Virus record (IMG/VR): IMGVR_UViG_3300042879_003994
Coordinates: 1-64,000 of that record
Strand: one strand, 5' to 3'
DNA from: a virus
DNA length: 64,000 nucleotides
The notes beneath the pieces were generated by a model. The model was not told where the DNA came from. It saw nothing but the letters and a program-made list of their open reading frames with translations, and made no database searches. A program made the translations under genes and the position numbers. Below, piece after piece: positions 21,781-63,409 of this stretch; position 1 is the first letter of the stretch; each line of letters opens with the position of its first letter.

Positions 21781-22296
21781 GTGACGGTTTCGGAAAGAGA
21801 TATAGATTTTTTTGCTAAAAAGCTTGGCTTATCACCAGAAAAGACTTTTTTGCTTCTGCAAGATCCAGATTGCTTACCAGAAATACTAGAAAAAGTATCA
21901 GAAGATAATATAGATGGAATCGTAGACATTAGTTTTCCAGTCTTTACAGAATTAACTATAATAAAATATAGCAAAGATTTAGATTACTCATTTGAAGAAA
22001 AGGAATATATATCAGAGACTGTTGGCACAAAATTTTATGATCTTATAGAATATCCACTTCAAAATAAGTATTTTTTTACATTAGAACATAATGAAGATAC
22101 AGCGAGGTCTGTGTTGGTATTTCTTGGATTCTTTTATAAGAGTTTACATAAAACTAGAAGATGTTATCCTTCTGAAAGTATATACTTTAATATAGCAAAA
22201 AATGGATTTATAAATTCAGATAAAGAAGAGATATCTTATCATCTAAAAGATTGGATTAAAGTATTAAGAATCATACATAATGAAGTTTGGTTTTAA
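21781..22296 (+). CDS. Hypothetical protein
   Basis: 171-aa ORF with CTGTAA 8 nt upstream. Confidence 0.6.
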   Translation: MTVSERDIDFFAKKLGLSPEKTFLLLQDPDCLPEILEKVSEDNIDGIVDISFPVFTELTIIKYSKDLDYSFEEKEYISETVGTKFYDLIEYPLQNKYFFTLEHNEDTARSVLVFLGFFYKSLHKTRRCYPSESIYFNIAKNGFINSDKEEISYHLKDWIKVLRIIHNEVWF

Positions 22297-22319
22297 TACG
22301 AAATCCTCAAATTATTTAA

Positions 22320-22628
22320 CTTTTCTTTGATATCCAAAAGGGCTTTACCTCCAGATTTTATATATCTGAAGTTGGGTATTATCAATCCAACTTTTCTTTT
22401 GACTCCAAATTTACCGCAATCTCAGCGATAAACGGGCCATCGCACTTATGGGTCAGAGGTAGCTTCGACCACTACATTCTGCGATGCCTATAGCTACATT
22501 CCCTTCAAAAGCCATATTATGTACAAAAGAAGGTTTTAATAGTTGTCAGCCCTTTAGACATTGCTATCTCAAGGATTGATAGTTGATTATTTGACATCAA
22601 CAAACTGCTCTAATTGGAAGCTATGTTA
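22320..22628 (-). ncRNA. Candidate structured non-coding RNA of unknown class; ends approximate
   Basis: ORF-free gap; TTGACA-17-TAGTAT promoter at 22663-22635; eight or more nested helices whose G-U pairs work only on the minus strand. Confidence 0.65.
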
Positions 22629-22682
22629 ATTTATATACTATTATTTTTTTATTTTTTTGTCAAATCTTTTTATAATATATAA

Positions 22683-22892
22683 ATGGAAATAATTAAAAGT
22701 AAAGCCAAATGGTCGGTTTATTCTCAAAAGTGCGTAAAGCATTATAATATAAACAATGAGAATATTTATGATGAACCTACTGAATATCCATGTATTGCTA
22801 TTCCTCAATTAATATCAGATATAAATGGTTCAAGAGTTAAATTCAGTTTTGTTTATAAAAAAGATTGCCAAAAACTTTTAAAAGCTTTATAA
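22683..22892 (+). CDS. Hypothetical protein
   Basis: 69-aa ORF with TATAAT 6 nt before the ATG. Confidence 0.6.
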   Translation: MEIIKSKAKWSVYSQKCVKHYNINNENIYDEPTEYPCIAIPQLISDINGSRVKFSFVYKKDCQKLLKAL

Positions 22893-22921: not shown

Positions 22922-23311
22922 GGGCCTGAATTTGGTTTCGATTTTAGTAATAGGAATTAGAATGCAAGTAGAGGTTTAGGTGGGTCTCTTTAAAAAACCT
23001 TAAAAGTATTAACTGCCAAAACAGCCAAATACAAAGGTCATATCTCTGCTAGAGTTTCTCTAGTCGAGGAGACCGTTTCTGTAGCTTAAGTTCTACAGCG
23101 TGATTACCATGACACATCTATTGGATAATTGCGTATTTAGATGTCTCTGATTATAAAGTTTTTTTATTCTTTATTGTCATTGTATTCAAAATAAACTCGC
23201 TTAGTATGTTTGTTCTTTTCCCTATACAAAGCTAAAAATAAAAAGAAATAAACTTGTAGTATTTTAATTTAAATTATCTAAAAGACCTCGGTTCAACTCC
23301 GAGCAGGTCCA
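22922..23311 (+). ncRNA. ssrA: tmRNA; tag reading frame 23015-23089 encodes AKTAKYKGHISARVSLVEETVSVA*
   Basis: Acceptor GGGCCTG/CAGGTCC-A with G3-U wobble; 5' GGTTTCGA; T arm CTCGGTTCAACTCCGAG; TTAACT|GCC resume context. Confidence 0.9.
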
Positions 23312-23363
23312 AGTAAACTTATGATAAATTCACATAATAATATGTGTATATATATTATAGATT

Positions 23364-46645: not shown

Positions 46646-46861
46646 ATGGCTTCATTAGACGATATTTATGATATGATTCAAAAATTAGACGACTCTAATA
46701 TTGAGTATCTTTTGATTACAGTACAGAAAGGTAAAAAGATCGGTAAAGCTGATGTATTTTATTCTTTAAAAGATAGAAATTCTATGAAAATCTTAACAGA
46801 AGGACTAAATAGATTTACAAAAGAAGTTGATAGACTAGACGATGAAGGCAAATTTGAATAA
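46646..46861 (+). CDS. Hypothetical protein
   Basis: 71-aa ORF within the operon. Confidence 0.6.
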   Translation: MASLDDIYDMIQKLDDSNIEYLLITVQKGKKIGKADVFYSLKDRNSMKILTEGLNRFTKEVDRLDDEGKFE

Positions 46862-49436
46862 TTTCTTAGAAGACAAAAATTTTTCTTCTAAATTTGAAGA
46901 TGTAGATTTAGGCCTACATGGAGTAAGGCTTCCAGAATTTACTATCGAATCTTCATCTAAAAGACATCTTAATCTTAGTGAAGATGTTACAAATTACGAC
47001 TTTCTTAGAGCCTTGTCATTAAATGGGTTTAAAGAACTAAAAATAGATAAATCTTTACCAGAATATAAAAAATATGTAGATCGCGCAAAGTACGAGTTGG
47101 AAACTCTAAGAGAGCTAGGCTTTATTGATTATATCCTTTTAGTTTGGGACGTAATTAATTTTTGTAAAACTAATAATATACCAATTGGATTAGGTAGAGG
47201 TTCTGCCGCTGGTTCATTAATTTTATATCTCATTGGCGTGACAAGAATTGATCCAGTTAAATATAACCTTTATTTTGAAAGATTTATATCTAAGATTCGT
47301 GCTAAAAAGCAGGTTATTGATGGAATAACCTATCTAGATGGCAGTTTAATGTGTGACGTAGATCTTGATATTTGTTATTATAATCGCCACAAAGTATTAG
47401 AATATCTTGAGAATAAATTCAGAGGTAAAACAAGTAAAATTCTTACTCTGAATACTTTAAGTGGAAAACTATTAATTAAAGAGTGTGGAAAAATTATTGG
47501 TGAAAAAACCGAAGAAGAAATGACAATGATCTCCTCTTTAATTCCAAAAATATTCGGCCAAGTTAAAGATATTACAACTGCCTATGAGGAAGTACCAAAA
47601 TTTAAAGAATGGTGCGATGAAAATAAAGAGGTATATGAAATTGCTTTAAAGCTAAGAGATCTAATTAAAAATAAAGGCGTACATCCATCTGGAGTTTTGC
47701 TATCATATGATGATTTAGAAAAAGTCTGCCCTACAGAATTTTCCTCAGATAAAGAACCAGTATCAAGTTTTGATATGAATTGGGTTAGTGTTTTTAATAT
47801 TAAGCTTGATATTTTAGGTTTAAGAAGTGTGTCGGTAGTTCATGACGTATGCAAAAATATTGGAATAAAAATTCAAGACATTGATCTAAATCATGAATCA
47901 ATTTATAGAAATCTTCAAGACTTGAAATCTCCTCATGGACTTTTTCAAATCGAAGCAGATACAAATTTTAAAGTCTGTCAAAAAGTAAAACCAAAGAACT
48001 TAGAAGAACTAAGTGGAGTTCTTGCTCTTGCGAGACCTGGAGCTTTACAATTCGTAGATAAATATGCAAAATACACAAATACTGGAGATTACGAAGGAAT
48101 TCATCCTTTCTTTGATGACACCTTAAAACATACTGGTGGAGTTGCACTTTATCAAGAGCAATTAATGCAAATGGCTCATAAGATCGGATTTACTCTTGAT
48201 GAAGCAGAAATTTTAAGGAGAATCGTTGGAAAGAAAAAGATTGATGAAATTAAAGCTTGGCAAAAGAAAATTGAGTCCAAGATTAAGCAGAATAAATTAC
48301 CAAAAGAAGTCGGAGAAATTCTATGGAAAATTATGGAAGATTCTGCGAACTACTCATTTAATAAGTCTCATTCTCTTGCCTACGCAGCTTTAGCAGCAGT
48401 AACAATCTATCTTAAATTTAACTATCCCCAACAATTTTTCTTATCTTTACTCAAGATGAGTAGAAATGAACCTGATCCAATTGGAGAAATTTCCAAGATT
48501 CAGAAAGAAATGCATGAGTTTGGTATAGAATTATTACCACCTCATATCATTAAATCGGATATGGATTTCTCTATCGAAGATAAAGACATAAGATTTGGAC
48601 TTCTATCAATTAAAGGTATTTCGGATAAGTCTATAGAAAAACTAAATAGTTTTCGTAATAAATATTCTAATAAATTTGAAATTTTTCAAGCAGCAGAAGA
48701 GGCTGATCTTAATATTGGAGTATTATCAGCTTTAATTCAAGCTGGCGCTTTAAGTGGATTTAATCAATCTAGAAGTAAAATAGTATTGGAAGCTCAACTT
48801 TGGAATGTCTTAACCTCAAAAGAAAAGAAATACGTAATCTCTTTCGCTGAGAAATTTGATTATGACTTAATTAAGATAATTAAACATTTAAATAAATTTA
48901 CTGACGAAAAGAATCATATAGTAATTAAAGATACTAGATTAAATACAATTAAAAATAAGTATGACCCATATCTAAAAATCTATAATCAAAATAGTAAAAG
49001 TGAAAGTTTCGCTAATTGGTATTACGAGAAAAAGCTACTAGGTTATACTTATAATAAAAATCTAAAAGAGATATTTTCTGAGAAAAGAGAGAATTTAAAA
49101 TATATTTATGATTTAGCTGAAGAACCTATTAATTCTAAGATTGCTTTTGTAGGTCAAATAGAAGAAGTTTACTCTGGCGTATCTAAAAACGAAAAGAAGA
49201 CTAGGTATGTTAGGTTAAAGATATCCGATGAAACTTCATCAATCAATGCTCTTATATTTAATGATAATATTGAAAATAATAAACTATTAAATAATAAAGC
49301 TTTCGAAGAAGGTAATATTGTAATAGTTAAAGGATTAAAGAAAAATGATTGTATATTTGCAGACTTAGTAGCCATTCAAGATCACGAAATATACATGAAG
49401 TTAAATGATTTAAAGAAAATAGATAAAAATAATTGA
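46842..49436 (+). CDS. dnaE: DNA polymerase III alpha catalytic part, lacking the PHP domain
   Basis: GRGSAAGS, FERF, CDVDLD, KLDILGL, YQEQ, YSFNKSH and C-terminal OB fold. Confidence 0.93.
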   Translation: MKANLNNFLEDKNFSSKFEDVDLGLHGVRLPEFTIESSSKRHLNLSEDVTNYDFLRALSLNGFKELKIDKSLPEYKKYVDRAKYELETLRELGFIDYILLVWDVINFCKTNNIPIGLGRGSAAGSLILYLIGVTRIDPVKYNLYFERFISKIRAKKQVIDGITYLDGSLMCDVDLDICYYNRHKVLEYLENKFRGKTSKILTLNTLSGKLLIKECGKIIGEKTEEEMTMISSLIPKIFGQVKDITTAYEEVPKFKEWCDENKEVYEIALKLRDLIKNKGVHPSGVLLSYDDLEKVCPTEFSSDKEPVSSFDMNWVSVFNIKLDILGLRSVSVVHDVCKNIGIKIQDIDLNHESIYRNLQDLKSPHGLFQIEADTNFKVCQKVKPKNLEELSGVLALARPGALQFVDKYAKYTNTGDYEGIHPFFDDTLKHTGGVALYQEQLMQMAHKIGFTLDEAEILRRIVGKKKIDEIKAWQKKIESKIKQNKLPKEVGEILWKIMEDSANYSFNKSHSLAYAALAAVTIYLKFNYPQQFFLSLLKMSRNEPDPIGEISKIQKEMHEFGIELLPPHIIKSDMDFSIEDKDIRFGLLSIKGISDKSIEKLNSFRNKYSNKFEIFQAAEEADLNIGVLSALIQAGALSGFNQSRSKIVLEAQLWNVLTSKEKKYVISFAEKFDYDLIKIIKHLNKFTDEKNHIVIKDTRLNTIKNKYDPYLKIYNQNSKSESFANWYYEKKLLGYTYNKNLKEIFSEKRENLKYIYDLAEEPINSKIAFVGQIEEVYSGVSKNEKKTRYVRLKISDETSSINALIFNDNIENNKLLNNKAFEEGNIVIVKGLKKNDCIFADLVAIQDHEIYMKLNDLKKIDKNN

Positions 49437-53120: not shown

Positions 53121-53930
53121 ATGAGCCCAAAAATTAAAGATAACGAAGAGACAATTTCAATTGGTAGTTCTGAATTAATTAATCATGTATCTCAGACTTT
53201 TGAATTGACTAGTAAACCAGTCACTCAAACACCTCCTAATATTATCACAAGAAATCAATACGGTCTATTAGAGAATAATAATATTACTTATATATATAAC
53301 GAAGATGGTACGATTAATTGGAGAAAGATGGTTAAAACAGAGTACCTTGTTCCAAATCGTCAAAAGACTCAAGAGACAGATGTTTCAAAATTAGAAGATA
53401 AAGATCTTCTCATACTCCTTGGTGGAATTAAAGAATTAGCTCAAATTAGAGGCTATACAACTGTAGAATACAAAGTTGTTGCTGCAACAGAAAATTATTT
53501 TGCTACAAGCTGCAGAATTATATGGATTCCTAATTACGAGACCGGTGGCAGAGAGATAGCATTTGAAGCTCTTGCCGATGCCACTTCTAATAACACTAAA
53601 TCTTTCGCCAGATTCTTTCTAGCTGCAATCGCGGAGAATCGAGCATTTGTTCGTTGTGTCCGTAATTTTCTTAAAATTAATATCGTCTCTCAGGAAGAGC
53701 TTGGTGATGCTAAATTACTGGATGATTCTAGTACTACGATAGAAAATCCAACATCTCCACAAAATCTTTTAGAAAAGACAATGAAAGATAAAGGGATTAC
53801 ATTTGATATTCTTAAAAAGAAATTGATCAAAGAAAAGTTTGATGGAGCAGAAAACTTTAATGTTATTACCGATATCCCAAAAGTAAAAATATTCGAACTA
53901 ATTGATAGAATTAAAAAAATTAAAGATTAA
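53121..53930 (+). CDS. Putative Rad52/Sak-like single-strand annealing protein
   Basis: A.ADA...N and AIAENRAFVR.VR......S.EEL patterns; start moved to ATG 53121. Confidence 0.5.
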   Translation: MSPKIKDNEETISIGSSELINHVSQTFELTSKPVTQTPPNIITRNQYGLLENNNITYIYNEDGTINWRKMVKTEYLVPNRQKTQETDVSKLEDKDLLILLGGIKELAQIRGYTTVEYKVVAATENYFATSCRIIWIPNYETGGREIAFEALADATSNNTKSFARFFLAAIAENRAFVRCVRNFLKINIVSQEELGDAKLLDDSSTTIENPTSPQNLLEKTMKDKGITFDILKKKLIKEKFDGAENFNVITDIPKVKIFELIDRIKKIKD

Positions 53931-57316: not shown

Positions 57317-58687
57317 ATGCCAACATCAAGAGAGATTTATGATTTAATTGTAAGCGGTAATCAATCTTTAAATACCGAATTAAGTTCTTTAACGCCCTCT
57401 ACTCAAGTCTTACTTTACGAAATAGATTTGTCCGAGATTGCGCCAACTATGATTAATTATAATTATAACGGCGAGCAACCTATAAATAATGGAATCTTCA
57501 GAATATATAATGATTATAATATATATAAATTATCCACAAATCCATATGGTACAATAAAATGGCAGCAAAATTATTATTATCCATTTCCAATTTTTGCAGA
57601 GGGATTTGAATATTCATCCGCTGGAAGTTTGCCAACTCCAAGAGTTGCTATATCTAATTTATCTCCAGATTATTCCTCTAATTCTTTCTATAGATACATT
57701 AGAATGCAGATGCAAAGTCTAGGTGATATTGTTGGCGCAAAATTTAGTAGAATTAAAACCTTTTTAAAATATCTAGATGGTGCAAATTTTTCTGGAAACG
57801 TAAATCCATTTAATCCAAATACAGGTCTATATGAAATAGAATTACCAAGGGATATATATTATATTGATAGAAAAACTGTAGAAAACAAAAATATTATTGA
57901 ATATCAATTAAACACAATACTTGATGTCGAAAATTTAACTCTCCCAGCTAGAACGCTTTATGCTCAAAAATGTCCATTTCAATATAGAGGTGAAGGATGT
58001 GTTTACGAATATAATAGTAGATTAACAGACATACATAGTGGAGTTTATGCTTATACAGTTAATCCAGGATATACAGTTAGTGGGTTACAGACTGCTCCAC
58101 CAGTTGCCACAGATAATGATCAATTATTTATTGGAGGCGTATTTGCCACAGGCGCTGCTGGAACAGCAACAAATACTGCTATCTTTAGGATCACTGGTGG
58201 ATTAGGAAATTCGGGACTTTGGAGAGAAACTTCTCAATACGTATCTGGAGATTTTATATTTTTACAAAATAGAGGTTTAAAATATTATTACGTTTGTATA
58301 AATAACCACACGGCAGACGTATTTAATGCTCCACCAAATATAAATTATTGGGCTTCTGATTCATGTGCGAAAAGTATTAATTCTTGCAGGCTAAGATGGC
58401 TTAAGAACCCAGCCTTCAGACCAGTTATTTGGCCAGCTAATAGGAACGGAGAAAATTTTGTTCAGACAAGAAATCGAATTGAATCTCTTTATGGTACAGG
58501 AGAAAGATTAAATCTTTGGGTTACTGGTATAAATGGAGTAGCAGTAAATTTCCCAAGAAGACCAGGATGCGAAGATCCTTCTTCTACTAGAGCGCACGGA
58601 CTACCAAAAGATGCTTTTGGCAACTATCTAAATGGATTTTTACCATTTGGAGGATTTCCAGGAACAAACCAACCAGCTTCTCAATAA
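57317..58687 (+). CDS. Minor tail protein L-like (lambda gpL)
   Basis: PI.AEGFE, P.P...ISN, YLD..NF, C.FQYRG..C.Y, D.C.K....C.LR and LPFGGFPG motifs. Confidence 0.9.
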   Translation: MPTSREIYDLIVSGNQSLNTELSSLTPSTQVLLYEIDLSEIAPTMINYNYNGEQPINNGIFRIYNDYNIYKLSTNPYGTIKWQQNYYYPFPIFAEGFEYSSAGSLPTPRVAISNLSPDYSSNSFYRYIRMQMQSLGDIVGAKFSRIKTFLKYLDGANFSGNVNPFNPNTGLYEIELPRDIYYIDRKTVENKNIIEYQLNTILDVENLTLPARTLYAQKCPFQYRGEGCVYEYNSRLTDIHSGVYAYTVNPGYTVSGLQTAPPVATDNDQLFIGGVFATGAAGTATNTAIFRITGGLGNSGLWRETSQYVSGDFIFLQNRGLKYYYVCINNHTADVFNAPPNINYWASDSCAKSINSCRLRWLKNPAFRPVIWPANRNGENFVQTRNRIESLYGTGERLNLWVTGINGVAVNFPRRPGCEDPSSTRAHGLPKDAFGNYLNGFLPFGGFPGTNQPASQ

Positions 58688-60178: not shown

Positions 60179-63100
60179 ATGGGTAATGCAAATAAATATG
60201 CAGATGGTTTGAGTTTTGTCCTGTTTCCAGGAAATATAGCTTATGGAACAGTTGGATATAACTTTCCAGAAAGTACAGCTCAAGATGATGGCGGTGGAGC
60301 AGGTGGAAACATATCGTTAAGTTTTAGTGGATCAAGAATACCTTTTACTAATAGTCCAACGTTTCTTTATTATAGAGGACCAAGCGGTTATGCGGCAAAT
60401 TATACTCCACTAGCAGTAATGACCGGTGGTTTAATACAAAGATTCTTTGAACGAGGCCCATCATTTCCTGGTTCTACATTCACTGGAAATGTGTTCGGTG
60501 CACCAGATTTAAGAACAATATTTGGAGTTAGTCCTAATACAGGCGTAGAAGGCGGTGTATTTCCACAAACAAATGGAGTCTTCATAAATGAAAGAACGAG
60601 AAATGGTCGAGCTTTTAATTCTATATCTCAGGTTAATATATTAGATTTAATTTGTGAAGGACCAATAGAAGGTTTTGTGACTGGAATATATGTGCCTAAT
60701 TTGAGTGGTAAAACTACTGGTGACATTGGATATACAAGTGTTACTTTTCAACCATACGAACAAACTTATAGCAATCCAGAAACAAGATCTATATTCTGGG
60801 ACGATGTACCAATAACAGATTTACAAGGTTTTTTTAATTTCCAATTTGCAGATTATAAATATACATATGGAGAAAAAACAAATGATCATACTATCTATAA
60901 TCCATATTTAAATCTTTACGAAGATAGAAGAGATTATTTTGGTAGACAAGTAGATAGAAATAAAATACCACTACAAACATCTGTTACTAAAGCAGTTGGA
61001 GATACTTTGTATGGATTTTATTTAATTAGTGGAAATAATCAAGTAATTTCACCAAAAACATATTACATATATAATACAGATGTGTCTTCAATAAGAATTA
61101 ATTTTAAGATAAATAGTCTTTATGAACAAATATTAACTGGAATAAATGCTGGTGACGTAGAGAAACATCTACAAATATTTAGGATCATAGTGTCTAGACT
61201 ATTAAAAAATGGAGAGACTGTTCTATTGGATACTTCTAAATACTCTCCTTATATTAAGGACTATTATTCTAGGGATGAATTTGGCGCTCAAGGAAAAATC
61301 GCAAATAGCCCAGTAATTGTTCCATACGAAATTACATTAAGACCATATGCTGAAAATTCTCCTTGGTTTGAACTTTTCCCAAATCAAATAGGATGGGCAA
61401 TAGACGTAGTAAAAATGAGTAGAGAAGGCGTTGGTGGAGGATTTTCAACATCTACAACTGTAGATAGCATAACAGAAATTTATTCAGACAGATTTACATA
61501 TCCAGATGCAGCTTTAGTTTATTCAAAATTTGATGCAAGATATTTTAATCAAATACCCACAAGAACATACAAGGTAAGACTACTTAAGGTAAAAATACCA
61601 ATTAATTATGATCCAATAACAAGAAATTATAATGGTCCGTGGAATGGACAATTTAAAGTTGCGTGGACAGATAATCCAGCTTGGTGCTTCTATGATCTTA
61701 TAACTAACAATAGATTTGGATTGGGGAAATATATAGATTCAAGTCTGACAGATAAATGGACGCTATATGAGATTGCTCAGTATTGTGATGAACTTGTTTC
61801 TGACGGAACAGGTGGACTAGAGCCAAGATTTAGATGCAATGTTTATATTGCAAATAAAGAAGAAGCTTACAAAGTATTAAATGATATGGCAAGTATATTT
61901 AGAGCAATTATTTATTACTCAGCAGGACAAATTACTGTTTCTCAAGATTCATTAAAGCAACCTATCTATTTATTTAATAATAGCAATGTAATTGAAGGAA
62001 CGTTTAATTATTCTGACGCTTCAAAGAAATCAAGAAAAACTGTTGCATCAGTTAGATTTAATGATGAAAATGATAATTTTAAACCAGCTATAGAATATAT
62101 TGAGGATAAAAATTCAATATTAAAATACGGCATAAGAGAAACAGATATTGTTGCATTTGGTTGCACAAATAAAAATCAAGCTAGAAGAGTCGGTAAATGG
62201 TTATTAACCACACAAAATACTGAAACTGAATTGGTAGATTTCCAAGTCGGTCTAGAAGGTAACTATATAAGACCAGGCGATGTAATATTAATTCATGATC
62301 AGTATAGAAAAAATGCAGCCTACGCAGGTCGAACTGTAGAACTAACTACTGGCTACGCAGTTTTAGATCTGCCATATAATTTTACTAATACCTATGCAAT
62401 AACTGGAGTCAACGCAAATAATTCATTTGTATTTAATATATTAACTCCTACTTATAATTTGAATTTAGGTACAACTTTAGGAGATCTTTATAGTACCGGA
62501 TTTGTTGATATAACTTCATCTGGGGTCACAGGATTAAATAGCTCCTTCTTCAGAAGAGGTCAGATTCAAACTATAACAATTAATAATCCTCAAAATTATT
62601 TAACTAGTGGATCTGGTATATATACAAATAATATAAGAATAAATTTCCCATCAAGATTGTCTAATTCTGGGTATAGCTTACCTCAAAATACAGTCTGGGC
62701 AATAGATATTAATCCATCTGGTTATCTGGCAGCTGGCATTGATACAAGATCTCCTATCAATAATCCTTCAAATGCCTTATATCCAGGATATTATTTAGAG
62801 CCATATCTAAATGAACCTAAAAAATATAGAGTCCTAACAATCTCAGAAAAAGAGCCAGAACTTTTTAACATTAATGCTCTAGAATATAATGATCAAAAAT
62901 ATTATGACATAGATAATGTTGCAACTCTAGTCAATGTTCCTGTCAAACCAGGTTTACCAGTTGCGCCAAGTCTTTTCTTGAGCGGAATATTTAGAAGTCC
63001 AACTACAAATTCTTATTTAAGTAACCCAGCTGGAGCGCATTTTGTTACAAATCAAGGTGGAATAAATAGCATAATGTACAACATACAGCCACCAAACAAT

Positions 63101-63409
63101 AATGCTAATAATAGTTTATATTATGTCTATGTAAAGCCAACTTCTAATTTTACAAATTCAACAACTCCAGAGATCTATCTTGCAGATGTTGTTTCTCCTT
63201 TACTAATAAGAACTGGCCTAACCCCATTCAATTGGGCAAGTAATTTGATTCCTCCATTCTTGACACCAACAGGTTCGGGTTTTTACTACTTTAGGGTATT
63301 CGCTGAAAATGCCCTTGGCGAAAGAAGTTCTCCAGCTACAGGCCTATACGTCTTAACTGCCCAAGCTTCTGTTTTTAGCGTTATAGCTTCTGGATACAAT
63401 ATATATTGA
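60179..63409 (+). CDS. Tail tip / host specificity protein J-like
   Basis: DLICEGPIEG, YP..A, AWTDNPAW, EPRF.CN, AFGCT...QA.R and PGDVI motifs. Confidence 0.92.
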   Translation: MGNANKYADGLSFVLFPGNIAYGTVGYNFPESTAQDDGGGAGGNISLSFSGSRIPFTNSPTFLYYRGPSGYAANYTPLAVMTGGLIQRFFERGPSFPGSTFTGNVFGAPDLRTIFGVSPNTGVEGGVFPQTNGVFINERTRNGRAFNSISQVNILDLICEGPIEGFVTGIYVPNLSGKTTGDIGYTSVTFQPYEQTYSNPETRSIFWDDVPITDLQGFFNFQFADYKYTYGEKTNDHTIYNPYLNLYEDRRDYFGRQVDRNKIPLQTSVTKAVGDTLYGFYLISGNNQVISPKTYYIYNTDVSSIRINFKINSLYEQILTGINAGDVEKHLQIFRIIVSRLLKNGETVLLDTSKYSPYIKDYYSRDEFGAQGKIANSPVIVPYEITLRPYAENSPWFELFPNQIGWAIDVVKMSREGVGGGFSTSTTVDSITEIYSDRFTYPDAALVYSKFDARYFNQIPTRTYKVRLLKVKIPINYDPITRNYNGPWNGQFKVAWTDNPAWCFYDLITNNRFGLGKYIDSSLTDKWTLYEIAQYCDELVSDGTGGLEPRFRCNVYIANKEEAYKVLNDMASIFRAIIYYSAGQITVSQDSLKQPIYLFNNSNVIEGTFNYSDASKKSRKTVASVRFNDENDNFKPAIEYIEDKNSILKYGIRETDIVAFGCTNKNQARRVGKWLLTTQNTETELVDFQVGLEGNYIRPGDVILIHDQYRKNAAYAGRTVELTTGYAVLDLPYNFTNTYAITGVNANNSFVFNILTPTYNLNLGTTLGDLYSTGFVDITSSGVTGLNSSFFRRGQIQTITINNPQNYLTSGSGIYTNNIRINFPSRLSNSGYSLPQNTVWAIDINPSGYLAAGIDTRSPINNPSNALYPGYYLEPYLNEPKKYRVLTISEKEPELFNINALEYNDQKYYDIDNVATLVNVPVKPGLPVAPSLFLSGIFRSPTTNSYLSNPAGAHFVTNQGGINSIMYNIQPPNNNANNSLYYVYVKPTSNFTNSTTPEIYLADVVSPLLIRTGLTPFNWASNLIPPFLTPTGSGFYYFRVFAENALGERSSPATGLYVLTAQASVFSVIASGYNIY

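What the first reader, a model, noticed from the sequence alone, without database searches (positions are those of the whole stretch)
22320..22663. Unclassified multi-branched ncRNA of about 300 nt with its own promoter, next to the tmRNA
Seen: in an otherwise gene-dense genome, 22297-22682 has no ORF and is locally GC-richer. A near-consensus minus-strand promoter (TTGACA 22663-22658, 17 nt, TAGTAT 22640-22635) fires into it, and unlike the other promoters here no start codon follows. Helices, all mutually nested (plus coordinates): 22327-34/22593-600 closing; 22564-68/22578-82; 22337-44/22548-55 (AAAGGGCT/AGCCCTTT), which encloses five arms 22352-56/22364-68, 22369-75/22387-93, 22410-17/22425-32, 22438-44/22480-86 (inner stem 22459-63/22471-75, possible GGUC/GACC pseudoknot) and 22502-06/22529-33. 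Three stems contain G-U pairs on the minus strand that would be A-C mismatches on the plus strand, independently agreeing with the promoter direction. I see no RNase P, SRP, 6S, group I intron or hammerhead signature. Inference: a possibly undescribed phage RNA class expressed early by host RNA polymerase.
Basis: partly seen in the sequence, partly recalled or inferred. Interest (0 to 1): 0.88.

Follow-up and report, generated by a model that had tools for sequence, protein, structure and literature searches.

The report
New knotted phage RNA, twin tracts
The gene-free gap beside this uncultured lake phage's tmRNA is a real, separately transcribed gene for a roughly 309-base, pseudoknotted non-coding RNA of no catalogued family; it carries two short exposed stretches that evolution keeps identical to each other, a strong clue that both dock onto one still unknown partner.

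Summary
Window 22297-22682 has no ORF over 34 aa and is GC-richer than its flanks. It sits behind a TTGACA-17-TAnnAT promoter that is kept in all 52 distinct clade A-C copies. Rfam 15 gives no credible match in three clades. I found 67 distinct copies in five sequence types (A-E).

A 72-pair model is 95.4% canonical. 38 pairs show compensatory changes, and slid controls pair at 31-47%. Its closing helix, the 22564-68/22578-82 stem and its inner stem fail covariation. The fold is not nested: two pseudoknots are well supported and two more are tentative. G-U versus A-C counts (227 to 24) place the RNA on the minus strand.

Two single-stranded 12-13-nt tracts (22402-22390 and 22330-22319) stayed identical to each other through at least eight independent events, some of them single-base changes. 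I found no internal, phage-encoded or tmRNA complement, so the function is unknown. My best reading is a rigid scaffold that presents twin sites to one trans partner. Expression evidence is weak: one lake metatranscriptome contig.

Earlier agents of this scan reported the same family on other phage genomes. I found it in neither Rfam 15 nor the papers searched.

The parts
22635..22663 (-). Promoter: -35 TTGACA 22663-22658, 17-nt spacer, -10 TAGTAT 22640-22635
   Evidence: 10 of 12 consensus matches; both hexamers and the 17-nt spacing are present in 52/52 distinct clade A-C copies while the spacer sequence varies. The type D and E copies read have it too.
22319..22627 (-). ncRNA gene, about 309 nt. 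The 5' end is inferred at 22628-22626, where conservation starts at ACAUAG. The last conserved base is 22319, the end of tract 2. No terminator was found downstream.
   Evidence: CM R1 match 22634-22301, 388 bits. Length from ACAUAG to the end of tract 2 is 306-318 nt in 52 copies. The distance from the -10 box to ACAUAG is mostly 6-10 nt.
22607..22621 (-). H1 hairpin, arms 22621-22618 / 22610-22607 (GCUU/GAGC)
   Evidence: helix 1: 100% paired, 3 of 4 pairs with changes on both sides. Type D has CCGC/GCGG.
22582..22601 (-). H2 hairpin, arms 22601-22597 / 22586-22582 (GUUGA/UCAAC).
   Evidence: helix 3: 4 of 5 pairs with double changes. L058 has AUUGA/UCAAU. Type D has UCGU/ACGA.
22539..22567 (-). 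H3 stem-loop: H3a 22567-64/22542-39 (AUAG/CUAU) and H3b 22560-57/22547-44 (UGUC/GACA). Its loop holds the 5' strand of PK1.
   Evidence: helices 5 and 6: 100% and 95.6% paired. YGUC/GACR switches 24 to 27. AUAG/CUAU becomes AUGG/CCAU in clade C and UGGG/CCCA in type D.
22338..22554 (-). PK1, long-range pseudoknot: AAGGGCU 22554-22548 (H3 loop) with AGCCCUU 22344-22338
   Evidence: helix 7: 99.4% paired, 4 of 7 pairs with double changes. At least seven distinct compensatory versions exist across the types.
22502..22533 (-). H4 hairpin, arms 22533-22529 / 22506-22502 (CCUUC/GAAGG), with a 22-nt conserved loop in clades A and B
   Evidence: helix 8: 4 of 5 pairs with double changes. In types D and E it is a short stem with a 4-6-nt loop, GNRA (GUAA, GAAA) in the copies read.
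22459..22497 (-). PK2, pseudoknot: GUAGC 22497-22493 with GCUAC 22463-22459 (loop of H6)
Evidence: helix 9: 97.6% paired, 2 of 5 pairs with double changes (GUGGC/GCCAC, GUGGA/UCCAC, GUAGG/CCUAC).
22435..22488 (-). H5, arms 22488-22480 / 22444-22435 (GGCAUCGCA / UGCGAUG-G-CC, one bulged G). It encloses H6 22470-67/22454-51 (GGUC/GACC).
   Evidence: helices 10 and 11: 97.8% and 98.5% paired, with 3 of 9 and 3 of 4 pairs showing double changes.
22412..22430 (-). H7 hairpin, arms 22430-22425 / 22417-22412 (UAUCGC/GCGGUA). It carries a GNRA-type loop in clade B and types D and E.
   Evidence: helix 12: all 6 pairs with double changes.
22390..22407 (-). Module 1: UGG 22407-22405 (3' strand of tentative PK3, pairing with CCA 22617-22615 in the H1 loop), then tract 1 UCAAAAGAAAAGU 22402-22390
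   Evidence: PK3: helix 2, 99.3% paired, with one pair switching A-U / U-A / U-G. It is not evident in types D and E. Tract: invariant core in clades A-C, no pairing partner at a constant place.
22348..22390 (-). H8 22390-87/22375-72 (UUGG/CCAA) and H9 22371-64/22356-48 (CUUCAGAU/AUCU-G-GAGG)
   Evidence: helices 13 and 14: 83.3% and 95.2% paired. H9 has 4 pairs with double changes. H8 has mostly one-sided changes.
22319..22335 (-). Module 2: GGAU 22335-22332 (3' strand of tentative PK4, pairing with AUCC 22576-22573), then tract 2 UCAAAGAAAAGU 22330-22319
   Evidence: PK4: helix 4, 95.6% paired but one-sided changes only. Tract 2 equals tract 1 minus one A in every copy, apart from L377 and L378 where that extra base is G.

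Best explanation
Shown: 22627-22319 (minus strand) is a stand-alone gene for a roughly 309-nt structured RNA of a family that is absent from Rfam 15. It has a conserved sigma-70-type promoter. Its fold comprises ten nested helices and two well-supported pseudoknots (PK1, PK2), plus two weaker ones (PK3, PK4). Two single-stranded tracts 66-76 nt apart remain identical to each other in all 67 distinct copies.

Inferred: host RNA polymerase transcribes it early. The knotted body serves as a rigid scaffold that presents the two tracts as equivalent docking sites for one trans-acting partner. Both tracts follow each other even in single-base changes, and the tract is purine-only in types A-C but mixed in types D and E. 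For those reasons I favour recognition by base pairing with a nucleic acid (a bivalent seed, decoy or guide) over recognition by a dimeric sequence-specific protein. The discrete RNA types would then be specificity types. The identity of the partner and the biological outcome (host takeover, anti-defence or exclusion between phages) are not shown.
For: Gene and strand:
- Promoter kept in 52/52 clade A-C copies with a variable spacer.
- 227 G-U cells against 24 A-C cells.
- Within type A the RNA is 89-99% identical, while the neighbouring 171-aa gene is 76-89% and the tmRNA 80-92%.

Structure:
- 72 pairs, 95.4% canonical, 38 pairs with changes on both sides.
- Covariation 0.310, against 0.157 for shuffles and 0.054-0.079 for slid controls.
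- The MAFFT alignment, made before any model was fitted, gives 94.4% and 0.296.
- Types D and E, which were not used to build the model, keep H1, H2, H3, PK1, H4, PK2, H5, H6 and H7 with new sequences.

New family:
- No Rfam match in three clades.

Twin tracts:
- The C/U position changes three times on the tree, always in both tracts.
- Types D and E differ from A-C by the same four substitutions in both tracts, and the 1-nt length difference is kept.
- Inside types D and E, four further variants occur in both tracts together: GGG to GGA, AUU to ACU, AAG to AAA, and final U to A.
- No complement lies at a constant place inside the RNA.

Types:
- A type D phage has a tmRNA 93% and a 171-aa gene 83% identical to the window's, but its RNA is only 61% identical.

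Expression hint:
- A 221-nt contig of a lake metatranscriptome covers 22380-22600 with 5 differences. That run covers no flanking gene.
Against: - No partner was found. There is no complementary site on the sense strand of four type D contigs or in the window. There is no type-specific match to the phage tmRNA.
- Most single changes in the tracts are transitions, which a fixed partner could tolerate through G-U wobble. Why the second tract must follow is therefore not explained by pairing alone.
- Identity of two direct repeats could also be a DNA-level constraint.
- The transcript is not demonstrated. The second RNA-library contig runs through the promoter region, as DNA carry-over would.
- No intrinsic terminator follows tract 2.
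- The formal sign test on the tree has too few events to reach significance.
- PK3 is absent in types D and E, and PK4 has no compensatory change.
Confidence: 0.5

Rival explanations
1. A self-assembling 'ornate' RNA like ROOL, GOLLD or OLE. Some of the covarying long-range pairs (PK1, PK3, PK4) would be bridges between copies, and the RNA would form a dimer or cage. The tracts would be A-minor or linker elements of that assembly.
For: The RNA is phage-encoded, sits beside RNA genes, is highly structured and has no known protein partner. In ROOL and GOLLD, pairs first called pseudoknots from covariation turned out to be intermolecular (PMC12286853). Covariation cannot tell intramolecular from intermolecular pairs.
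Against: At 309 nt it is about half the size or less of those RNAs as I recall them (GOLLD members often exceed 800 nt, PMC12286853). There is no sequence or model similarity. No palindromic loop covaries as a palindrome. The tract changes from purine-only to mixed sequence, which does not suit A-minor docking. This reading does not explain why the two tracts must be identical.
Confidence: 0.15
2. A sponge for a host RNA-binding protein: Hfq through A-R-N repeats, CsrA through GGA motifs, ribosomal protein S1, or a sequence-specific endoribonuclease such as a type III toxin. The RNA would titrate that protein during infection.
For: There are two identical exposed tracts, each preceded by GGA. 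In types A-C the tract reads as (A-R-N)3. The promoter suggests early expression. Phage pseudo-antitoxin RNAs against ToxN are known (my own knowledge, not checked here).
Against: Types D and E have a mixed-sequence tract (UCAAUUGGGAAGU) that is no longer an A-R-N run. The conserved GGA triplets appear to be base-paired (PK3, PK4). Only two sites are present, whereas CsrB-type sponges carry many. Concerted single-base changes are easier to explain by base pairing than by protein recognition.
Confidence: 0.15
3. A ribozyme, for example a reduced RNase P-like enzyme that processes the phage tmRNA and tRNAs, or a self-processing RNA with the tracts as cleavage sites.
For: The fold is complex and pseudoknotted, with invariant unpaired bases (AUAAGUG, GGNAAAG). 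GAGG-N-AAAG-YC before the PK1 strand resembles RNase P CR-I, a resemblance I recalled from memory. Every contig that holds enough sequence also carries a tmRNA.
Against: No RNase P or other ribozyme model matches, even at E up to 10, in three clades. There is no terminal P1-like helix. The CR-I-like and CR-V-like strings lie in the wrong order, and the 'P4' partner sits in a hairpin loop. The large H4 loop is dispensable in types D and E.
Confidence: 0.07
4. A DNA-level or cis-acting element rather than a trans-acting RNA: a leader or riboswitch of nrdA, a terminator for the convergent operon, or paired protein-binding repeats (iterons or operators).
For: In types C, D and E the element lies about 120 nt upstream of nrdA on the same strand. 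On the plus strand, 22368-22394 plus a T-run scores as a terminator 72 nt after the 171-aa gene. Direct repeats that evolve in concert are typical of iterons.
Against: In clades A and B no gene follows on the RNA strand, and the element is convergent with the nrd operon. It has its own conserved promoter. Compensatory changes preserve G-U pairs on one strand only. Tract 2 has no hairpin before it on the plus strand. The terminator reading would cover only H8 and tract 1.
Confidence: 0.06

Closest known systems
ROOL (RF03087) and GOLLD (RF01998) RNAs
   Same: They are large, intricately folded ncRNAs of phages and prophages. They are encoded beside tRNA or other RNA genes, have their own expression, and their function is unknown. 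Long-range covarying pairs are a feature of both (PMC12286853).
   Different: No homology was detected. This RNA is about 309 nt, about half the size or less as I recall those RNAs (GOLLD members often exceed 800 nt). Multimer formation is untested here. ROOL and GOLLD have no pair of identical, co-evolving single-stranded tracts.
Phage immunity RNAs that act through short recognition sequences (P4 CI RNA with seqA/seqB/seqC; P1/P7 c4 RNA)
   Same: These are small phage RNAs whose specificity lies in short sequences. Those sequences differ between heteroimmune relatives and must match a partner. In P4 two near-identical sequences flank the RNA-coding region. All of this is from my own knowledge and was not checked here.
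   Different: Those RNAs are 70-80 nt and are processed from operon transcripts. Their complementary partner lies in the same phage region. Here no complement was found in the RNA, the window or four type D contigs, and the body is four times larger and pseudoknotted.
Type III antitoxin RNAs (ToxI and relatives) and phage pseudo-ToxI
   Same: They are repeated recognition or cleavage motifs embedded in pseudoknotted RNA. The repeats evolve in concert because one protein reads them all. Phages can carry mimics. This is from my own knowledge.
   Different: Those are tandem whole-unit repeats of roughly 34-45 nt (my recollection) next to a toxin gene. Here only 12-13 nt (at most about 25 nt loosely) are repeated, the spacer is a conserved structured segment, and no toxin gene is adjacent.
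tmRNA (RF00023), the neighbouring gene
   Same: It is a phage-encoded, multi-pseudoknot stable RNA of similar size. It co-occurs with this RNA in every contig that holds enough sequence.
   Different: This RNA has no tRNA-like domain and no tag reading frame. The Rfam tmRNA model does not match it. Adjacency is not kept: the two genes lie 7-12 kb apart in types C and D. There is no type-specific complementarity between them.

Membership tests
ROOL (RF03087) / GOLLD (RF01998) | Sequence and structure match to the Rfam covariance model at or near the gathering score | tested here: not met
   No match at gathering threshold in the window. No match at E up to 10 in copies of clades A, B and C.
ROOL (RF03087) / GOLLD (RF01998) | Homo-oligomeric RNA-only assembly | not testable with these tools
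   This needs mass photometry or cryo-EM. Covariation cannot separate intramolecular from intermolecular pairs.
ROOL (RF03087) / GOLLD (RF01998) | Phage or prophage location near tRNA-type genes | tested here: met
   The gene lies 260 nt from the tmRNA in the window. It is 7-12 kb from the tmRNA in types C and D.
Bacterial RNase P RNA (RF00010/RF00011) | Match to the covariance model; terminal P1 helix; P4 formed by CR-I (5') and CR-V (3') in that order | tested here: not met
   No RNase P hit at E up to 10 in three clades. No helix joins the 5' and 3' ends. The CR-I-like string lies 3' of its partner, and the partner sits in a hairpin loop.
Riboswitch or 5' leader (cis-regulatory RNA) | A regulated gene immediately downstream on the same strand in most members | tested here: not met
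   In clades A and B the next gene is convergent. Only types C, D and E have nrdA downstream.
Type III toxin-antitoxin antitoxin RNA | Tandem whole-unit direct repeats next to an endoribonuclease toxin gene | tested here: not met
   Only the 12-13-nt tracts are repeated. Neighbouring ORFs have no Pfam or PHROG toxin match.
CsrB/RsmZ-type protein sponge | Many GGA motifs exposed in hairpin loops | tested here: not met
   Only two GGA triplets are conserved in all types, and both appear to be paired in PK3 and PK4.
Protein-coding gene (small ORF) | An open frame conserved across homologues | tested here: not met
   The longest ORF is 34 aa. Stops and indels of non-triplet length occur in the other clades. 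Substitutions are compensatory in helices.

The most novel reading that the evidence does not exclude
The RNA is a programmable, bivalent recognition RNA. The 12-13-nt tracts would be twin seeds (or twin decoy targets) that base-pair with a nucleic acid of the host, of a competing phage or of a defence system. The sequence types A-E would be specificity alleles that are exchanged or diversified among otherwise near-identical phages, giving an RNA-based arms-race or exclusion determinant carried on a pseudoknotted scaffold.
Probability: 0.2. Interest if true: 0.9.

Novelty: categorically new. Interest (0 to 1): 0.8.

Why it matters
Large, complex non-coding RNAs with unknown function are rare, and they have repeatedly led to new biochemistry such as ribozymes, riboswitches and RNA cages. 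This one is unusually tractable.

- It is short enough for probing and cryo-EM.
- It has a rich natural set of compensatory variants: 67 distinct copies in five types.
- It offers a built-in functional handle, two exposed tracts that must stay identical. That predicts a simple experiment: change one tract, change both, or swap types.
- It is the most conserved local element in a widespread group of lake phages. It nonetheless switches type between phages whose flanking genes are nearly the same, a pattern typical of specificity or conflict determinants.

If the partner is a nucleic acid, this would be a new kind of phage RNA-guided or decoy function.

Tried and rejected
- Known families. Rfam at gathering threshold on the whole window. 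Permissive scans of the clade A, B and C copies. Only scattered sub-threshold hits to different families came back.
- RNase P idea. GAGG-N-AAAG-YC and ACAUAAUAUGGCUU resemble CR-I and CR-V, but their order and topology are wrong and no model matches, so I dropped it.
- Coding. No conserved ORF.
- RNAalifold on the raw alignments gave muddled consensus folds because of the pseudoknots and the included promoter. I built the helices by hand and then tested them.
- Raw mutual information was dominated by clade structure and was of no use.
- Internal partner for the tracts. No complement at a constant place in any type. The H1 loop CCCAAUU complements the type D tract, but it does not follow the L373 and L382 changes.
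- Phage-encoded target. The tract complement is not enriched in the window. On the sense strand of four type D contigs it is absent apart from one site (G006:16052), and the other copies of the tract string in G002 look like WE codons in coding sequence.
- tmRNA as partner. Duplex energies are no better for cognate than for non-cognate pairs.
- Cellular homologues. This is inconclusive.
- Other viral pattern hits outside the family were CM-negative.
- A protein partner in the neighbourhood. The 171-aa, 112-aa, 66-aa, 69-aa and 433-aa neighbours have no informative Pfam or PHROG match. The KGKAPLNKPFR protein next to the RNA in clade C has no homologue in the window. The protein atlas was not available.
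- Metatranscriptomes. Only contigs could be laid, so ends, strand and level could not be read. Parts of the RNA without cover in runs X21, X23 and X24 say nothing.
- The CM search of G001 missed a copy that is there, so negative CM results for divergent types are weak.
Full report
**1. What is in the window**

The window is the first 64 kb of a 73.8-kb IMG/VR phage contig of about 30% GC, estimated 47% complete. Its proteins include ribonucleotide reductase, a DnaE-like polymerase and J-like tail proteins. Between a 171-aa gene ending at 22296 (plus strand) and a 69-aa ORF starting at 22683 (plus strand), no ORF exceeds 34 aa. GC rises to 0.385-0.405 there, against about 0.25-0.27 in the flanks. 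A tmRNA lies at 22922-23312 on the plus strand. On the minus strand there is TTGACA (22663-22658), 17 nt, then TAGTAT (22640-22635). The minimum-free-energy fold is only modestly better than shuffles, z -2.4 for the minus strand and -2.0 for the plus strand. A single-sequence fold is therefore not the evidence that matters.

**2. Homologues**

The 171-aa neighbour recovered 37 related viral loci. The gap is conserved in most of them. A conserved 17-mer brought in more loci. nhmmer found 94 hits, giving 52 distinct full-length copies in three clades, A, B and C.

Searching whole contigs that carry the 171-aa gene but seemed to lack the RNA revealed a fourth type, D, at 77 bits. Reading another such contig revealed a fifth type, E, which the model-based genome search had missed. 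Two further pattern scans added 15 distinct type D and E copies. Viral pattern hits outside these types were negative with the covariance model. DNA runs holding the stretch are almost all lake-water metagenomes.

**3. It is a gene with its own promoter, on the minus strand**

All 52 clade A-C copies have TTGACA, exactly 17 nt, and TAnnAT, while the spacer sequence varies. ACAUAG follows, mostly 6-10 nt after the -10 box. The type D and E copies I read have the same arrangement. Conservation runs from ACAUAG to the end of the second tract, 306-318 nt, which in the window is about 22627 to 22319.

In the structural model, 227 cells are G-U, which is allowed only if the minus strand is the RNA. 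Only 24 cells are A-C.

Within type A the RNA is 89-99% identical to the window's copy. The 171-aa gene is 76-89%, the 69-aa ORF 70-92% and the tmRNA 80-92%.

**4. Structure**

I derived the helices by hand from the three-clade alignment and then tested them. On the plain MAFFT alignment, made before any model was fitted, 65 pairs are 94.4% canonical. 32 pairs have changes on both sides. The covariation score is 0.296, against 0.160 for shuffles and 0.053-0.091 when partners are slid by 1-3 columns.

I built covariance model R1 and realigned. The full 72-pair model then gives 95.4% canonical pairs, 38 pairs with double changes and covariation 0.310, against 0.054-0.079 for slid controls. An alignment fitted to the model leans towards it, so the MAFFT figures are the fairer ones.

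The elements, in window coordinates:
- H1: 22621-18 / 22610-07
- H2: 22601-597 / 22586-82
- H3a: 22567-64 / 22542-39
- H3b: 22560-57 / 22547-44
- PK1: 22554-48 / 22344-38
- H4: 22533-29 / 22506-02
- PK2: 22497-93 / 22463-59
- H5: 22488-80 / 22444-35
- H6: 22470-67 / 22454-51
- H7: 22430-25 / 22417-12
- H8: 22390-87 / 22375-72
- H9: 22371-64 / 22356-48

Types D and E played no part in building the model. They keep H1, H2, H3a, H3b, PK1, H4, PK2, H5, H6 and H7 with different sequences. PK1, for example, reads AAGGGCU/AGCCCUU in type A, GAAGACU/AGUCUUC in B, CGGAGCU/AGCUCCG in D and CGAAGCU/AGCUUCG in E.

Two further long-range pairings are tentative. PK3 joins the H1 loop CCA (22617-15) to UGG (22407-05). 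It has one compensatory pair in clades A-C but is not evident in types D and E. PK4 joins AUCC (22576-73) to GGAU (22335-32) and shows only one-sided changes.

**5.

Seven of its ten helices are confirmed. Three are not: the closing helix 22327-34/22593-600, the 22564-68/22578-82 stem, and the inner stem 22459-63/22471-75. These pair only in clade A and have no covariation, 0.052 against a shuffled mean of 0.065. Covarying alternatives replace them: the local hairpin H2, H3a, and PK2.

It is PK1. Its 5' strand sits in the loop of the covarying hairpin H3, so the fold is pseudoknotted, not nested.

**6. Not a known family**

Rfam 15 gives no match at gathering scores in the window. At E up to 10 there is nothing consistent for the clade A, B and C copies. 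I noticed strings reminiscent of RNase P CR-I and CR-V. Their order is reversed, no terminal helix exists, and the supposed P4 partner lies in a hairpin loop, so I do not file the RNA there.

The paper library yielded the large survey of candidate viral structured RNAs (PMC10690425). Term searches of its main text showed nothing resembling this RNA, but I did not open its supplementary tables of candidates. The library also yielded papers on phage tmRNAs (PMC9004378) and the ROOL/GOLLD/OLE structures (PMC12286853). None describes this RNA. Earlier agents of this scan reported the same family on other phage genomes and also found no known family.

**7. The twin tracts**

Two single-stranded stretches stand out:
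- Tract 1: UCAAAAGAAAAGU, 22402-22390
- Tract 2: UCAAAGAAAAGU, 22330-22319

Each is preceded by N-GGA and a 2-3-nt linker. They are identical except for one extra A in tract 1, and they lie 66-76 nt apart.

Their variable positions change together:
- The second base (C or U) changes three times on the tree, each time in both tracts.
- Types D and E read UCAAUUGGGAAGU and UCAUUGGGAAGU. These are the same four substitutions in both tracts, with the length difference kept.
- Within types D and E, four more variants appear in both tracts of the same copies: GGG to GGA (L373), AUU to ACU (L382), AAG to AAA (L374, L379, L380) and final U to A (L371, L380).

The only discordance is at the extra base of tract 1, in L377 and L378. 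That makes at least eight branch events without a discordant core. The tool's sign test cannot reach significance with so few independent pairs, so this is a count and not a p-value.

The base before GGA is also the same in both modules in clades A-C (U, G and A respectively), but not in type D. A pyrimidine in H9 flips together with the C/U position in three events, but not in clade C. I leave that unexplained.

**8. What the tracts do not pair with**

- No segment at a constant position in the RNA complements the tract in all types.
- The H1 loop complements the type D tract, but it does not follow the L373 and L382 changes.
- The complement is not enriched in the window.
- On the sense strand of four type D contigs the complement is absent apart from one site in G006. 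The other copies of the tract string in G002 look like WE codons in coding sequence.
- The phage tmRNA shows no type-specific complementarity.

The partner is therefore outside the RNA. It is either host-encoded, in unsampled parts of these incomplete genomes, or a protein.

**9. Types and context**

RNA types do not follow the flanks. A type D phage has a tmRNA 93% and a 171-aa gene 83% identical to the window's, yet its RNA is only 61% identical. Type B and C RNAs are 72% identical, with flanking genes at 80-81%. Within type A the RNA is the best conserved local element. Strong constraint within a type combined with jumps between types is what a specificity determinant would show.

Adjacency to the tmRNA is not essential. 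In types C and D the two genes are 7-12 kb apart. There the nrdA-to-171-aa block is inverted, so the RNA gene lies about 120 nt upstream of nrdA. In clades A and B nothing follows on its strand, so the RNA is not an nrdA leader.

**10. Expression**

Only assembled contigs of RNA libraries could be laid. One lake metatranscriptome (X23) has a 221-nt contig on 22380-22600 with 5 differences. That run also covers the tmRNA but no flanking gene. Another (X24) has a contig from 22422 that continues through a relative's promoter, as DNA carry-over or read-through would. Depths are low, about 4, against 100-240 for the tmRNA. This is a weak hint and not a demonstration.

**11. Interpretation**

Shown: a conserved, promoter-driven, pseudoknotted RNA gene of a new family, with two exposed tracts under selection to be identical.

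Inferred: the knotted body is a scaffold that presents the tracts as two equivalent sites for one trans partner. The tract sequence can change from purine-only to mixed and can change one base at a time. For that reason I favour nucleic-acid base pairing over a fixed protein motif. This weakens the Hfq and CsrA sponge ideas.

Rivals that remain open are a ROOL/GOLLD-like self-assembly in which some 'pseudoknots' are bridges between copies (PMC12286853), a protein sponge or nuclease decoy, a ribozyme, and a DNA-level role of the repeats. The absence of a terminator after tract 2 and the mechanism that keeps the tracts identical are unexplained.

Noticed in passing
window 22922-23312 (+): The phage tmRNA (24-codon tag ending VSVA) is covered by contigs of three lake RNA libraries at depths of about 9, 130-240 and 60-145. 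Neighbouring genes are at 12 or less. It therefore appears to be abundantly expressed in nature.
   Followed up: partly
window 22368-22394 (+) plus the T-run to about 22404: On the plus strand, the antisense of H8 followed by the antisense of tract 1 scores as an intrinsic terminator. It lies 72 nt after the convergent 171-aa gene. The RNA gene may double as the terminator of the nrd operon in clades A and B.
   Followed up: no
L349 1501-1811; L367 (G001:C1:24600-25400, minus strand); L011 1-190: Divergent type D and E copies of the RNA lie upstream of nrdA on its strand. The model-based genome search missed the type E copy in G001, so a model built from clades A-C under-detects the family. 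A GUACAC/AUACAC box follows the RNA in types C, D and E.
   Followed up: partly
window 22683-22892 (+): A 69-aa ORF of no known family starts 20 nt from the RNA's -35 box and is transcribed divergently. It is kept in clades A and B. In clade C its place is taken by a 283-363-aa protein beginning MEIDF with a KGKAPLNKPFR motif, which has no homologue in the window.
   Followed up: partly
window 53827-53838: An exact copy of the 12-nt tract 2 string lies on the plus strand, inside the coding region of the 279-aa gene. It is probably chance.
   Followed up: no
window 46842-49436, 57317-58687, 60179-63409: A DnaE-like polymerase, a minor tail protein and a J-like central tail fibre point to a large siphovirus-like phage. 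This differs from the 'T4-like' label in some earlier notes on relatives.
   Followed up: no
window 22371-22348 (H9), alignment A3 column 291: The second base of the H9 5' strand (U-G or C-G pair) flips whenever the C/U position of the two tracts flips, in three events in clades A and B. It does not do so in clade C.
   Followed up: partly
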